Below, in pieces: positions 4,972 through 60,990 of a stretch of DNA of 64,000 bases. The position numbers were made by a program, and so were the translations under genes. Numbering within the stretch: the first letter of the stretch is position 1; every line of letters starts with the position of its first letter. The notes beneath the pieces were generated by a model. The model searched no databases. It saw only the letters and a list, made by a program, of their open reading frames with translations, and was not told where the DNA came from. The DNA is from Escherichia coli. GTDB taxonomy: Bacteria; Pseudomonadota; Gammaproteobacteria; Enterobacterales; Enterobacteriaceae. The DNA is taken from NCBI RefSeq assembly GCF_050920415.1, contig NZ_CP169309.1. The stretch is one strand, 5' to 3'.

Positions 4972-6405
4972 ATGAAAGTAACGCTGCCAGAGTTTGAACG
5001 TGCAGGAGTGATGGTGGTTGGTGATGTGATGCTGGATCGTTACTGGTACGGTCCCACCAGCCGTATCTCGCCGGAAGCGCCGGTGCCCGTGGTTAAAGTG
5101 AATACCATCGAAGAACGTCCGGGCGGCGCGGCTAACGTGGCGATGAATATCGCTTCTCTCGGTGCTAATGCACGCCTGGTCGGGTTGACGGGCATTGACG
5201 ATGCGGCGCGCGCGCTGAGTAAATCTCTGGCCGACGTCAACGTCAAATGCGACTTCGTTTCTGTACCGACGCATCCGACCATCACCAAATTACGGGTACT
5301 TTCCCGCAACCAACAGCTGATCCGTCTGGATTTTGAAGAAGGTTTCGAAGGGGTTGATCCGCAGCCGCTGCACGAGCGGATTAATCAGGCGCTGAGTTCG
5401 ATTGGCGCGCTGGTGCTCTCTGACTACGCGAAAGGTGCGCTGGCAAGCGTGCAGCAGATGATCCAACTGGCGCGTAAAGCGGGCGTTCCGGTGCTGATTG
5501 ATCCAAAAGGCACCGATTTTGAGCGCTACCGCGGCGCTACGCTGTTAACGCCGAATCTCTCGGAATTTGAAGCTGTTGTCGGTAAATGTAAGACCGAAGA
5601 AGAGATTGTTGAGCGCGGAATGAAACTGATTGCCGATTACGAATTCTCGGCTCTGTTGGTGACCCGTTCCGAACAAGGGATGTCGCTGCTGCAACCGGGT
5701 AAAGAGCCGCTGCATATGCCAACCCAGGCGCAGGAAGTGTATGACGTCACCGGTGCGGGCGATACGGTGATTGGTGTGCTGGCAGCAACGCTGGCGGCGG
5801 GTAATTCGCTGGAAGAAGCCTGCTTCTTTGCCAACGCGGCGGCCGGTGTGGTGGTTGGCAAACTGGGAACATCCACGGTTTCGCCGATCGAGCTGGAAAA
5901 TGCAGTACGTGGACGTGCAGATACCGGCTTTGGTGTGATGACCGAAGAGGAACTGAAGCTTGCTGTAGCGGCGGCGCGTAAACGCGGTGAAAAAGTGGTG
6001 ATGACCAATGGCGTCTTCGACATCCTGCACGCCGGGCACGTCTCCTATCTGGCAAATGCCCGCAAACTGGGTGACCGCCTGATTGTCGCTGTGAACAGCG
6101 ATGCCTCCACCAAACGGCTGAAAGGGGATTCCCGCCCCGTTAACCCTCTCGAACAGCGTATGATTGTGCTGGGGGCACTGGAAGCGGTCGACTGGGTGGT
6201 GTCGTTTGAAGAAGACACGCCGCAGCGCTTGATCGCCGGGATCTTGCCAGACCTGCTGGTGAAAGGCGGCGACTATAAACCAGAAGAGATTGCCGGGAGT
6301 AAAGAAGTCTGGGCCAACGGTGGCGAAGTGCTGGTGCTCAACTTCGAAGACGGTTGCTCAACCACTAACATTATCAAGAAGATCCAGCAGGATAAAAAAG
6401 GCTAA
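4972..6405 (+). CDS. hldE: Bifunctional D-glycero-beta-D-manno-heptose-7-phosphate kinase / heptose-1-phosphate adenylyltransferase
   Basis: 477-aa ORF; N-terminal ribokinase-like and C-terminal cytidylyltransferase-like halves; RBS AGGAGACAGG. Confidence 0.95.
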
Positions 6406-6485
6406 CCGGAAAGCGGTTCACAGTTCTCGCGTTGTGCCGGATAGTCCTATTGACGCTGTTGTTTTTTCAACCTAAAGTAAAGGAA

Positions 6486-6627
6486 CAAGGGTAAGGGAGG
6501 ATTTCTCCCCCCTCTGAATGGCCGTTAATAAGCGTGGAAACTTATCAGTAACAGCACAATCAGTATGATGACGAACTTCATCATAACCCTTTCCTTATAC
6601 AAGGCCCCTTCTTCGGGAGGGGCTTTC
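6486..6627 (+). ncRNA. sib: Sib-type antisense sRNA (antitoxin of ibs), copy 1
   Basis: Promoter TTGACG-17 bp-TAAAGT at about 6450-6478; fully overlaps the ibs ORF on the opposite strand; terminator hairpin GCCCCTtcttcgggAGGGGC followed by TTT at about 6604-6626. Confidence 0.55.
6525..6584 (-). CDS. ibs: Ibs-family small hydrophobic toxin (19 aa, MMKFVIILIVLLLISFHAY)
   Basis: 19-codon ORF on minus strand, translated by hand; too short for the ORF track; matches the Ibs toxin pattern MMK-hydrophobic-SF-AY. Confidence 0.7.
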   Translation of the reverse strand: MMKFVIILIVLLLISFHAY

Positions 6628-6861
6628 CCGTTTCAGCCCCTTGCTGATTCCCCGATTGTTGATGAGCGCCAGACCCCGCGCAATGCTTTCCCTGATGCAC
6701 TTTTCTCTTCCCCGAGTCGGCTCGCAAAACGCTGTAACAACCTGATCATTTGTACTTTTTAGCGGAACGCAGATATAAAAAATCCCCGGCTTTTTGGGCC
6801 AGGGATATGTGTTAATGAAACCTTCTTGACGCTGATTTTTTTTCAACCTAAAGTAAAGGAA

Positions 6862-7003
6862 CAAGGGTAAGGGAGGATTTCTCCCCCCTCTGAATTGGTT
6901 GTTAGTAAGTCGGGAAACTTAACAGTAACAACACAATCAGTATGATGACGAACTTCATCATAACCCTTTCCTTATACAAGGCCCCTTCCTCGGGAGGGGC
7001 TTT
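6862..7003 (+). ncRNA. sib: Sib-type antisense sRNA (antitoxin of ibs), copy 2
   Basis: Promoter TTGACG-17 bp-TAAAGT at about 6826-6854; terminator GCCCCTtcctcgggAGGGGC followed by TTT at about 6981-7003. Confidence 0.55.
6902..6961 (-). CDS. ibs: Ibs-family small hydrophobic toxin (19 aa, MMKFVIILIVLLLLSFPTY)
   Basis: 19-codon minus-strand ORF in the second repeat unit, translated by hand. Confidence 0.7.
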   Translation of the reverse strand: MMKFVIILIVLLLLSFPTY

Positions 7004-7199
7004 CCCGTTTCAGCCCCTTGCTGACTCCCCGATTGTTGATGAGCGCCAGACCCCGCGCAATGCTTTCTCTTATGCAGTTTTCTCTTCCCCGAGTCGGCTC
7101 GCAAAACGCTGTAACAACCTGATCATTTGTACTTTTTAGCGGAACACAGATATAAAAAATCCCCGACTTTTTGGGCCAGGGATGTTCATGGTTGAAAAT

Positions 7200-8861
7200 T
7201 TATTCTATGTTTTCTGCTACGGGAGTTGTTGAGGTTAAGGGTGAAGTCAATGCCGCTAGCGAGCCGCCTGAAACACCAATTTCATTGAGCAAGGAGTCAA
7301 TCAGCGGTGCCTGTGTGCGGTAAGAAAGCGCGGCTGATAACGCTTGTTCCGCCAGATTTCCTCCACCAACGCTACCTGATATTGCATCCCCTGCGGTACC
7401 ACCACGGTTCAGACCATCGACCTGAATAATCTTAATACCGTCGATAGACTTCATTGGTTCCACAGATTTCTCAATTACCGCAGGGAGCGCCTGCAACAAT
7501 GCCAGCTTGAATTTAAGGCTGGTTTGCTCGTCAGAAAGTACGTTGATAGCATCGTTCAGCGCACGTTGCGCTTCTGCTTCCGCCAGGCCTTTTTTACGCG
7601 TAGCTTCGGCTAACTCAACGATCGCCGCCGCCTGCATCTCTGCGGCTTCTTTCTCTGCTTTCGCCCGCACGGTCAGTTCAACCGCTTTGGTTTCTGCATC
7701 CTGCGCGGCAGCGATTAGGGCAACTTGTTTAGCACGATCGGCTTCTGCGGTCTGGCGAGTGGTTTCTACGTTTTGCTGGGCGCTTACCGCTTCTGCAAGT
7801 GCAAGGTTGGCACGCGCTTCCGTTTGTGACTGCTGTTCCGATTTGGCGGCAATAGCGATCGATTTCGTCTGGTTGGCGATTTCGGTGACCTGCTGCTGTT
7901 CGATCTCTTTAATGCGAACTTCACGTTCAGCTTCAACTTTTCTGGAACGGACGGCCTGTTCGCGGTCGATTTCCGTTTCCTGAATCTGTCGTTCAGCCAG
8001 AATTCGCGTCTGCTCTGCTTCCCGACGACGCTCGGCCTCAAAAGCCGCAATTTTCGCATTCTGCTCAGCGGTACGGGTTTTAACCTGCTGCTCCTGCTCA
8101 AGCGTCATAAACGCTTCTTGCTGTTCAATCTCCAGCTTCCGCGAAAGCGCATCACGGTTTTTCTCACGCACCGCAACTTCTACATCCTGTTCAACTTCGT
8201 TACGTTCGCGACGACGGCGCTCCGTCTCCTGCGTCAGCTTGGTTAAACCTTCGGCGTCAAAGGCGTTGTTAGGATTGAAATGTTCTTTCGACGTCTGGTT
8301 AAAGTTGGTAAGTGAAACGCTTTCCAGTTCCAGGCCGTTTTTCGACAGATCTTCAGCAACGGTATTTTGTACGCCCTGCACGAAGTTCTCGCGGGTATCC
8401 TGTAACTCATGCATGGTCATTTGTGCAGCTGTTGCACGGAGGGCATCGACAAATTTATCTTCAACCAACATACGTAAGTCTTCAGGCGACAGGGTGCGTT
8501 GCCCCAGCGTCTGGGCGGCGGTGGCAATACCTTCCACTGACGGTTTTACCCGCACAAAGAAAGCGACAACGACATCGACGCGCATACGATCTTTCGTAAT
8601 CAGGCTATCAATGGTTGAGCGGCTGACTTCCAGCTTCAGAGTATTCATATTGATGGGGATTATTTCATGAAAGATCGGCATCACGATTGCGCCACCGCTC
8701 ATTACCACTTTTTGCCCACCTAAACCAGTACGAACAAAAGCTTGCTCTGCCGAAGCGCGACGATAGAGCCTGGCGAAAATAATTCCAATAATTAACAGAA
8801 TGCATACGGCAATAATTGCGGTAAACATCCAGGAGGGCACAGAATTAACAATATCATCCAT
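7200..8861 (-). CDS. yqiK: SPFH / band 7 (flotillin-like) membrane protein with long coiled-coil region
   Basis: 553-aa ORF; N-terminal TM helix, SPFH-like region, Ala/Glu/Gln-rich coiled coil; downstream partner of yqiJ. Confidence 0.9.
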   Translation of the reverse strand: MDDIVNSVPSWMFTAIIAVCILLIIGIIFARLYRRASAEQAFVRTGLGGQKVVMSGGAIVMPIFHEIIPINMNTLKLEVSRSTIDSLITKDRMRVDVVVAFFVRVKPSVEGIATAAQTLGQRTLSPEDLRMLVEDKFVDALRATAAQMTMHELQDTRENFVQGVQNTVAEDLSKNGLELESVSLTNFNQTSKEHFNPNNAFDAEGLTKLTQETERRRRERNEVEQDVEVAVREKNRDALSRKLEIEQQEAFMTLEQEQQVKTRTAEQNAKIAAFEAERRREAEQTRILAERQIQETEIDREQAVRSRKVEAEREVRIKEIEQQQVTEIANQTKSIAIAAKSEQQSQTEARANLALAEAVSAQQNVETTRQTAEADRAKQVALIAAAQDAETKAVELTVRAKAEKEAAEMQAAAIVELAEATRKKGLAEAEAQRALNDAINVLSDEQTSLKFKLALLQALPAVIEKSVEPMKSIDGIKIIQVDGLNRGGTAGDAISGSVGGGNLAEQALSAALSYRTQAPLIDSLLNEIGVSGGSLAALTSPLTSTTPVAENIE

Positions 8862-44095: not shown

Positions 44096-44199
44096 ACGTT
44101 CCTCCTTTATATGAACTCACCGGAGCTGGCTCCGGTGAGGTGTTGTGAACTTAAGTCTGGACGAAATGCCCGAAAACGAAAGTTTGAGGCGTAAAAAGC

Positions 44200-60899: not shown

Positions 60900-60990
60900 T
60901 TTTGTAGGCCTGATAAGACGCGGCTGCATCGCATCAGGCATTGTGCACGATTGCCGGATGCGGCGTGAACGCCTTATCCGGCCTGGATGG
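60900..60990. repeat. REP elements / BIME between hybG and yghU
   Basis: GTAGGCCTGATAAGACGCGGCTGCATCGCATCAGGCA and TTGCCGGATGCGGCGTGAACGCCTTATCCGGCCTGG. Confidence 0.6.

What the first reader, a model, noticed from the sequence alone, without database searches (positions are those of the whole stretch)
6449..7194. Tandem pair of Ibs/Sib type I toxin-antitoxin loci hidden in the hldE-yqiK intergenic region
The 0.75 kb between convergent hldE and yqiK is a direct tandem duplication of a ~372 bp unit. On the minus strand each unit carries a 19-codon ORF encoding a highly hydrophobic peptide (MMKFVIILIVLLLISFHAY at 6584..6525; MMKFVIILIVLLLLSFPTY at 6961..6902), the hallmark of Ibs membrane toxins. 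On the plus strand each unit has a near-consensus sigma70 promoter (TTGACG-17-TAAAGT) and a GC hairpin plus U-run terminator bracketing the toxin ORF, matching the cis-antisense Sib sRNA antitoxins. The ORF track instead shows a 65-aa plus-strand ORF in each unit, which I regard as spurious. The two toxin copies differ at the C-terminus (ISFHAY versus LSFPTY), consistent with diverged paralogues. The unit ends in an imperfect hairpin that on the minus strand reads as a terminator (ATCCCTGGcccaaaaagCCGGGGAT + T-run), so the yqiK terminator appears to have been co-duplicated.
Basis: partly seen in the sequence, partly recalled or inferred. Interest (0 to 1): 0.55.

Follow-up and report, generated by a model that had tools for sequence, protein, structure and literature searches.

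The report
Known Sib/Ibs toxin-antitoxin tandem pair

Summary
Window 6450-7195 is a 1.9-copy tandem repeat with a 377-bp period and 95% identity. Each unit gives a full-length Rfam SIB_RNA hit on the + strand (149 and 144 bits; gathering score 56). Each unit also holds a 19-codon hydrophobic ORF on the - strand, lying wholly inside the Sib RNA.

The window is 100% identical to E. coli MFDS1022581. The region aligns without rearrangement, at 95% identity, to the K-12 yqiK-sibD/ibsD-sibE/ibsE-hldE locus, which has been characterised experimentally.

The 65-aa + strand ORFs are frame-shifted in K-12 and match no family, so they are spurious. The duplicated - strand terminator hairpin is real and is found only in the D/E units.

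One mildly interesting extra emerged. The Sib target-recognition domains are shuffled between the two slots across E. coli strains. Unit 1 carries a rare TRD1 allele (12 of 5,426 genomes). Both window units share an identical TRD2, which predicts some cross-repression.

The parts
6450..7195 (.). Tandem direct repeat of two Sib/Ibs units, 376-377 bp each and about 93-97% identical
6450..6478 (+). Sib promoter of unit 1 (hldE side, K-12 sibE position): TTGACG-17-TAAAGT
   Evidence: The 35 bp at 6450-6484 match 34 of 35 bases upstream of K-12 sibE.
6485..6628 (+). Sib antitoxin RNA of unit 1, 144 nt, +1 = A, ending in an 11-bp G+C hairpin (6601-6626) followed by UUUCC
   Evidence: Rfam RF00113 hit at 149.4 bits over 6450-6599 (the model includes the promoter). 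Ends were mapped from the K-12 sibE annotation through alignment A1. Fold -52.6 kcal/mol, z = -4.4.
6525..6584 (-). ibs toxin ORF of unit 1, 19 aa, MMKFVIILIVLLLISFHAY (WP_100733770.1); Shine-Dalgarno-like AAGGAAAGGG at 6596..6587
   Evidence: GRAVY 2.29; 16 of 19 residues match IbsC and IbsD.
6531..6553 (+). TRD1-equivalent of Sib unit 1, a rare allele. The TRD2-equivalent lies at 6584-6602.
   Evidence: Mapped from SibC +46..+68 and +99..+115 (Han 2010) by alignment. The allele is in 12 of 5,426 genomes.
6655..6683 (-). Predicted ibs promoter of unit 1 (TTGCGC-17-AACAAT), with a TSS predicted near 6646-6649 and an mRNA of about 160 nt ending near 6486 after the hairpin at 6513..6494
   Evidence: Inference from the sequence, from the 18-nt 5' overhang and ~160-nt ibs mRNA length in Han 2010, and from the fold. 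The consensus scan did not detect it.
6776..6806 (-). Internal copy of the yqiK-type intrinsic terminator (ATCCCTGG-loop-CCGGGGAT followed by a T-run), between the two units and upstream of the unit 1 ibs promoter
   Evidence: Conserved in K-12; absent from the sibA/B/C units.
6826..6854 (+). Sib promoter of unit 2 (yqiK side, K-12 sibD position)
   Evidence: The 35 bp at 6826-6860 are 35/35 identical to the K-12 sibD minimal promoter.
6861..7005 (+). Sib antitoxin RNA of unit 2, 145 nt, +1 = A, terminator hairpin at 6978-7003
   Evidence: Rfam RF00113 hit at 143.7 bits. Ends mapped from K-12 sibD. Fold -55.9 kcal/mol, z = -5.0. TRD1 (6908-6930) and TRD2 (6961-6979) are identical to K-12 SibE.
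6902..6961 (-). ibs toxin ORF of unit 2, 19 aa, MMKFVIILIVLLLLSFPTY (WP_071821827.1)
   Evidence: 17 of 19 residues match K-12 IbsE.
7032..7060 (-). Predicted ibs promoter of unit 2 (same TTGCGC-17-AACAAT)
   Evidence: Sequence read directly, in register with unit 1. Inference.
7153..7183 (-). Intrinsic terminator 17 nt downstream of the yqiK stop codon; the original of the duplicated hairpin
6565..6762 (+). 65-aa ORF (with a twin at 6942-7139), judged spurious
   Evidence: No NCBIfam hit. Reading frame lost in both K-12 units. Not annotated.

Best explanation
The region holds two adjacent type I toxin-antitoxin modules of the Sib/Ibs family. They are the positional orthologues of E. coli K-12 sibE/ibsE (unit 1, next to hldE) and sibD/ibsD (unit 2, next to yqiK).

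In each unit a sigma-70 promoter on the + strand makes a Sib RNA of about 144 nt. This RNA is perfectly complementary to the whole ribosome-binding site and 19-codon ORF of the ibs mRNA, which is about 160 nt long and transcribed from a weak promoter on the - strand.

Sib contacts the ibs mRNA first through two variable recognition domains: TRD1, inside the ORF, and TRD2, over the translation-initiation region. Pairing then spreads, translation is blocked, and the duplex becomes an RNase III substrate.

If Sib is lost, the very hydrophobic Ibs peptide inserts in the inner membrane and stops growth. In E. coli it damages the envelope. In Salmonella, IbsA binds the Fo a and b subunits and blocks proton translocation.

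What is shown here: the sequence features, the family membership and the orthology. What is inferred from K-12 and Salmonella experiments: expression, repression and toxicity in this strain.
For: Rfam SIB_RNA hits over the full model at 149.4 and 143.7 bits, against a gathering score of 56.

The window is 100% identical to NZ_CP169399.1, where both ORFs are annotated as Ibs family toxins at the same coordinates.

The region aligns at 95% identity, without rearrangement, to K-12 yqiK-sibD/ibsD-sibE/ibsE-hldE.

The Sib promoters match K-12 at 35/35 and 34/35 positions, with +1 = A.

Both ibs ORFs lie wholly inside their Sib RNA.

The peptides match K-12 Ibs peptides at 16-17 of 19 residues and have GRAVY about 2.2-2.3.

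The Sib folds are stable (z = -4.4 and -5.0) and end in terminator hairpins.

The mechanism comes from Han et al. 2010, PMC2943612, which also summarises Fozo et al. 2008. The toxin target comes from bioRxiv 10.1101/2025.05.26.656083.
Against: No expression or toxicity data exist for this strain.

The NCBIfam hmmscan of the peptides (extended to 25 aa to meet the tool's minimum length) returned nothing. This is most likely a length and filter limitation.

The ibs promoter is weak and was not found by the consensus scan.

K-12 annotation calls IbsD only a 'putative' toxic peptide.
Confidence: 0.97

Rival explanations
1. The two modules are not orthogonal in this strain. Because both Sib RNAs carry the same TRD2, each can repress the other's ibs mRNA, so the pair acts as a partly redundant double antitoxin rather than as two independent systems.
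For: The TRD2-equivalents (6584-6602 and 6961-6979) are identical at 19/19 positions, whereas K-12 SibD and SibE differ there (16/19). TRD1 differs at 4 of 23 positions. Han 2010 reports that TRD1 and TRD2 function independently and that swapping either one redirects specificity.
Against: TRD2 needs a specific structural context (Han 2010). Cross-repression was measured for SibC and SibD constructs, not for these alleles. The 9 other differences between the two RNAs might still discriminate. This refines the main explanation rather than replacing it.
Confidence: 0.4
2. One of the two copies is a decaying, non-functional duplicate, either a silent toxin gene or a dead antitoxin.
For: About 27% of complete E. 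coli genomes manage with a single unit at this locus. K-12 IbsD is annotated only as 'putative'.
Against: Both units keep an intact promoter, +1 A, full-length covariance-model match, terminator, Shine-Dalgarno-like sequence and a 19-codon ORF without frameshift. Their scores are nearly equal (149 and 144 bits).
Confidence: 0.08
3. The 65-aa + strand ORFs (6565-6762 and 6942-7139) are the real genes, and the small ORFs and RNA motifs are incidental.
For: The ORFs are present, with the same length, in both units. One other genome lists a 'hypothetical protein' under the match (H12; not examined).
Against: In K-12 the same start gives a 59-aa product with a different C-terminal half in one unit and a 27-aa stub in the other, because of 1-nt indels. 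There is no NCBIfam family and no annotation in the identical genome or in K-12. The ORF starts inside an RNA with a strong covariance-model match.
Confidence: 0.02

Closest known systems
E. coli K-12 sibD/ibsD and sibE/ibsE (b4447/b4664 and b4611/b4666; formerly the QUAD1d repeat) between yqiK and hldE
   Same: Same flanking genes, same order and orientation, two units spaced 376 bp apart, and 95% identity across the intergenic region. The Sib promoters match at 35/35 and 34/35 positions. The terminator hairpins are the same, and both loci have 19-aa Ibs peptides.
   Different: The recognition-domain content of the slots differs. The window's yqiK-side unit (the sibD position, with a sibD-type promoter) carries TRD1 and TRD2 identical to K-12 SibE and an IbsE-like peptide (..LLSFPTY). 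The hldE-side unit carries a TRD1 that matches no K-12 Sib (best 20/23, to SibC) and has the peptide C-terminus ISFHAY. Both peptides have F instead of L at residue 4.
K-12 sibA/ibsA-sibB/ibsB (tandem) and sibC/ibsC
   Same: Same family and the same antisense architecture. Homology runs from the Sib -35 hexamer to just past the ibs transcription start.
   Different: Different genomic sites, and only about 70% identity over the RNA. These units lack the yqiK-type - strand terminator hairpin. The sibC unit has an unrelated terminator after serA at the equivalent place.
Other chromosomal type I toxin-antitoxin systems found in tandem copies (ldr/rdl, hok/sok, zor/orz)
   Same: A small hydrophobic membrane toxin repressed by an antisense RNA, often duplicated within one intergenic region (Fozo 2010, PMC2887945).
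   Different: In Sib/Ibs the antitoxin RNA overlaps the entire toxin ORF and translation-initiation region (Han 2010). There is no sequence relationship to those families.

Membership tests
Sib antitoxin RNA (Rfam RF00113) | Match to the family covariance model (sequence plus structure) at or above the curated gathering score | tested here: met
   149.4 and 143.7 bits against a gathering score of 56, model positions 1-147 of 147, + strand. The reverse-strand hits, at 31-34 bits, fall below the gathering score.
Sib antitoxin RNA (Rfam RF00113) | Own sigma-70 promoter and intrinsic terminator giving an RNA of about 140 nt | tested here: met
   TTGACG-17-TAAAGT promoters match K-12 sibD and sibE at 35/35 and 34/35 positions. 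Each RNA ends in an 11-bp G+C hairpin followed by UUUCC. The lengths mapped from K-12 are 144 and 145 nt.
Ibs type I toxin | An 18-19 aa, highly hydrophobic peptide homologous to IbsA-E | tested here: met
   19 aa, GRAVY 2.2-2.3, 16-17 of 19 residues identical to K-12 IbsC, IbsD or IbsE. In RefSeq the same proteins, WP_100733770.1 and WP_071821827.1, are named Ibs family toxins.
Ibs type I toxin | Match to a curated protein-family HMM | tested here: inconclusive
   The NCBIfam hmmscan of 25-aa N-terminally extended versions gave no hit. The tool's minimum length is 20 aa, and Pfam's profile_search needs at least 30 aa, so the native 19-mers could not be submitted.
Sib/Ibs type I toxin-antitoxin module | Antitoxin RNA encoded antisense to the toxin and overlapping the whole ORF and translation-initiation region | tested here: met
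   ORF 6525-6584 lies inside Sib 6485-6628, and ORF 6902-6961 lies inside Sib 6861-7005.
Sib/Ibs type I toxin-antitoxin module | Orthology to an experimentally characterised locus (same flanking genes) | tested here: met
   Aligns without rearrangement to K-12 yqiK-sibD-sibE-hldE. A match of at least 80% coverage is present in 5,403 of 5,426 complete E. coli genomes.
Sib/Ibs type I toxin-antitoxin module | Toxicity of Ibs on overexpression and repression by the cognate Sib | not testable with these tools
   Known for K-12 pairs only (Fozo 2008 as summarised in Han 2010; Han 2010).

The most novel reading that the evidence does not exclude
The hldE-yqiK site may behave as a one- or two-slot cassette locus. 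Sib/Ibs recognition-domain alleles (at least five TRD1 and five TRD2 variants in 12 strains) are reshuffled between slots by gene conversion or unequal crossing-over. Selection acting on RNA-RNA recognition, not on the peptide, may keep the two slots different.

The window carries a slot combination seen in no other of 5,426 complete genomes. It includes a rare TRD1 allele (12 genomes) and two units with identical TRD2.
Probability: 0.3. Interest if true: 0.3.

Novelty: already known. Interest (0 to 1): 0.08.

Why it matters
It matters little as a discovery. The Sib/Ibs loci between yqiK and hldE have been known since the QUAD/Sib work and Fozo et al. 2008. Their recognition mechanism was dissected in 2010, and both toxin ORFs are already annotated in this strain.

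The practical value is for annotation. The two Sib RNAs are not annotated in the RefSeq record, and the 65-aa ORFs that an ORF track shows there should be ignored.

The population side-observation could be a compact natural data set for studying how cis-antisense pairs keep or lose specificity. It covers shuffled recognition domains, a single-unit state in about 27% of genomes, and all four CTN Leu codons used at the centre of TRD1. It is an extension of known biology, not a new kind of system.

Tried and rejected
1. The NCBIfam hmmscan of the two peptides (25-aa extended forms) and of the two 65-aa ORFs found no family. For the peptides this is uninformative, because they are too short. For the 65-aa ORFs it agrees with their being spurious.

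2. The consensus scan did not report the Sib terminators, because their U-run is interrupted, and did not report the weak ibs promoters. I placed the terminators from the folds. I placed the promoters by reading the - strand and using the ibs mRNA length and overhang from Han 2010.

3. I considered that the - strand hairpin at 6806..6782 might be the terminator of the unit 2 ibs mRNA. I rejected this as the main 3' end, because ibs mRNAs are reported to be about 160 nt and a hairpin plus T-rich tail lies at the right distance (6513..6494 in unit 1). The 6806..6782 hairpin may still stop read-through.

4. I considered that this hairpin might be an integral part of every Sib/Ibs unit rather than a copy of the yqiK terminator. 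I rejected this because it is absent from the K-12 sibA, sibB and sibC units.

5. I looked for a second, upstream ibs promoter around the conserved TTTGCGAG block (6728..6721). No conserved -10 element lies at a proper spacing in the five units, so the block remains unexplained.

6. I tried to read Fozo et al. 2008 and the 2008 MMBR review. Neither is held in the library.

Full report

Yes. Tandem Repeats Finder reports one array at 6450-7183, with period 377, 1.9 copies, 95% matches and no indels. The repeat finder gives the same two units in register, with spacing 376-377 bp and 93-97% identity. The unit is therefore 376-377 bp, not ~372 bp.

The array fills the gap between hldE (4972-6405, +) and yqiK (7200-8861, -), which converge on it.

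The two 19-codon - strand ORFs are at exactly the stated coordinates. They encode MMKFVIILIVLLLISFHAY (6584..6525) and MMKFVIILIVLLLLSFPTY (6961..6902).

The + strand promoters TTGACG-17-TAAAGT are at 6450-6478 and 6826-6854. The - strand hairpin-plus-T-run sites are at 6806..6782 and 7183..7159.

**2. What is it?**

A covariance-model scan against Rfam gives two full-length SIB_RNA (RF00113) matches on the + strand. They lie at 6450-6599 (149.4 bits) and 6826-6976 (143.7 bits), against a gathering score of 56. The opposite strand scores only 31-34 bits.

The window is 100% identical over this region to E. coli strain MFDS1022581 (NZ_CP169399.1). In that RefSeq record both small ORFs are already annotated as "type I toxin-antitoxin system Ibs family toxin" (WP_100733770.1 and WP_071821827.1). 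Their positions convert exactly to 6525-6584 and 6902-6961.

E. coli K-12 has yqiK, sibD/ibsD, sibE/ibsE and hldE at the orthologous place. The two intergenic regions align end to end at 95% identity.

Carrying the K-12 RNA ends through that alignment gives these Sib RNAs:
- Unit 1 (K-12 sibE position): 6485-6628, 144 nt.
- Unit 2 (K-12 sibD position): 6861-7005, 145 nt.

Both start with A, 7 nt after the -10 hexamer. Both end in an 11-bp G+C hairpin followed by UUUCC. Both fold far better than shuffled controls (z = -4.4 and -5.0).

The 35 bp upstream of +1 match K-12 sibD at 35/35 positions and K-12 sibE at 34/35. Each ibs ORF, with its Shine-Dalgarno-like AAGGAAAGGG, lies wholly inside its Sib RNA.

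**3. The - strand transcription unit**

Han et al. 2010 (PMC2943612) mapped the ibsC and ibsD starts. They used ibs mRNAs of 159-163 nt and state that the ibsC mRNA overhangs the SibC 3' end by 18 nt.

Applied here, this puts the unit 1 ibs start near 6646-6649. That is 6-7 nt downstream of a weak TTGCGC-17-AACAAT promoter (6683..6655, read). The TTG of its -35 hexamer is conserved in all five unit types.

The 3' end would then fall near 6486, after the hairpin at 6513..6494 and its T-rich tail. The same elements occur in unit 2 at 7060..7032. These placements are inferences.

**4. The 65-aa ORFs**

They exist at 6565-6762 and 6942-7139, but several points count against them:
- They start inside the Sib RNA.
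- They match no NCBIfam family.
- They are not annotated in the identical genome or in K-12.
- They are not conserved as reading frames. In K-12, 1-nt indels give a 59-aa product with a different C-terminal half in one unit and a 27-aa stub in the other.

**5. The duplicated terminator**

The hairpin at 7183..7159 lies 17 nt after the yqiK stop codon. A near-identical copy ends unit 1 at 6806..6782. Both copies are also present in K-12.

The hairpin is absent from the K-12 sibA and sibB units. At sibC, an unrelated terminator follows serA at the equivalent place.

A plausible role for the internal copy is to shield the unit 1 ibs promoter from read-through coming from the unit 2 ibs gene or from yqiK. 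This role is an inference.

**6. Mechanism**

The mechanism is established for K-12 and inferred here:
- Sib RNAs are made constitutively and repress the cognate ibs mRNA. [quoted passage not shown]
- Recognition starts at TRD1, which lies in a loop within the ORF, and at TRD2, which lies over the translation-initiation region. The two domains act independently and pairing then spreads. The duplex is cut by RNase III in vitro.
- In Salmonella, IbsA binds the Fo a and b subunits, blocks proton translocation and lowers ATP (bioRxiv 10.1101/2025.05.26.656083).
- K-12 SibD is largely NAD-capped in stationary phase, through its 35-bp minimal promoter (PMC12956327). That promoter is identical in unit 2 here, so the same is expected. 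This too is an inference.

**7. What differs from K-12**

I aligned the two window RNAs with the five K-12 Sib RNAs.

Unit 2 sits in the sibD slot and has the sibD-type promoter. Even so, its TRD1 (23/23) and TRD2 (19/19) are identical to K-12 SibE, and its peptide is IbsE-like.

Unit 1 sits in the sibE slot. Its TRD1 matches no K-12 Sib (best 20/23, to SibC), and it encodes ...ISFHAY.

The two window units share an identical TRD2. They differ at 10 positions, 8 of them in or just before TRD1. Han 2010 showed that either domain can suffice, so some cross-repression between the two modules is predicted. This has not been tested.

**8. Population context**

- A match covering at least 80% of the query is present in 5,403 of 5,426 complete E. 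coli genomes.
- The inter-unit junction is present in 3,928 genomes, so about 72% have the tandem. Most of the rest have a single unit.
- In 12 sampled strains (21 units) there are five TRD1 alleles, with peptide C-termini PTY, AAY, HAY, QAY and ATY, and five TRD2 variants. They occur in shuffled combinations and in either slot, while the promoter signature mostly stays with the slot.
- Strain R32_14_1F has the window's two peptides in the opposite order.
- The unit 1 TRD1 allele occurs in 12 of 5,426 genomes. The SibE-type allele occurs in 4,907.
- Nucleotide diversity peaks in and just before TRD1 (0.14), upstream of the ibs promoter (0.10) and in TRD2 (0.08). It is 0.02-0.04 in the remaining segments, apart from 0.06 in the - strand terminator hairpin.
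- Leu codon 13, at the centre of TRD1, uses all four CTN codons. This fits selection on RNA pairing.

The sample is small and the strains are not phylogenetically independent. Identical tandem units would also be lost easily by recombination. I therefore report this only as a side-observation.

**9. Verdict**

It is an already known, already annotated system. It is known that ibs-sib loci are duplicated within one intergenic region and that ORF callers often miss them (Fozo et al. 2010, PMC2887945). Interest is low.

Noticed in passing
window 6531-6553, 6584-6602, 6908-6930, 6961-6979; loci L005-L014: Sib recognition-domain alleles are shuffled between the two slots among E. coli strains. In 12 strains there are five TRD1 and five TRD2 variants, and one strain has the window's two peptides in reverse order. 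All 9 sampled tandem strains have a different TRD1 in each slot. The window's two units share an identical TRD2.
   Followed up: partly
window 6506-6556: The unit 1 TRD1 allele (peptide ending ISFHAY) is rare, found in 12 of 5,426 complete E. coli genomes. The full 881-bp arrangement is matched at 99% identity or better only by the source strain itself.
   Followed up: yes
window 6785-6855 (inter-unit junction): Copy number varies at this locus. The junction is present in 3,928 of 5,426 genomes. Many of the others have a single Sib/Ibs unit between hldE and yqiK, and at least one genome (H78) matches only at the hldE end.
   Followed up: partly
window 6721-6728 (+ CTCGCAAA; - strand TTTGCGAG): This 8-nt block is invariant in both window units and in the K-12 sibA, sibB and sibC units, although the surrounding sequence cannot be aligned between the unit types. 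It lies about 75 nt upstream of the predicted ibs start. No conserved -10 element accompanies it, and its function is unknown.
   Followed up: partly
window 6404-6418 (- strand): A weak terminator-like hairpin (AACCGCTTTCCGGTT followed by AGCCTTTTTT) overlaps the hldE stop codon on the opposite strand. It could stop ibs-strand transcripts from running antisense into hldE. No + strand terminator was found between hldE and the first Sib promoter.
   Followed up: no
window 6826-6860: This 35-bp promoter is identical to the K-12 sibD minimal promoter, which was reported in 2026 to be sufficient for NAD+ capping of transcripts. The unit 2 Sib RNA starts with A and is predicted to be NAD-capped.
   Followed up: partly
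window 10443-10591 (+): FMN riboswitch aptamer (RF00050, 120.9 bits).
   Followed up: no
window 44134-44197 (-) and 60907-60983 (-): Rfam hits to the ES173 sRNA (99 bits) and to naRNA4/CssrE (87 bits).
   Followed up: no
H12 (NZ_CM128605.1): One genome lists a 'hypothetical protein' under the match, in addition to the two Ibs toxins. It may be the spurious 65-aa ORF called there.
   Followed up: no
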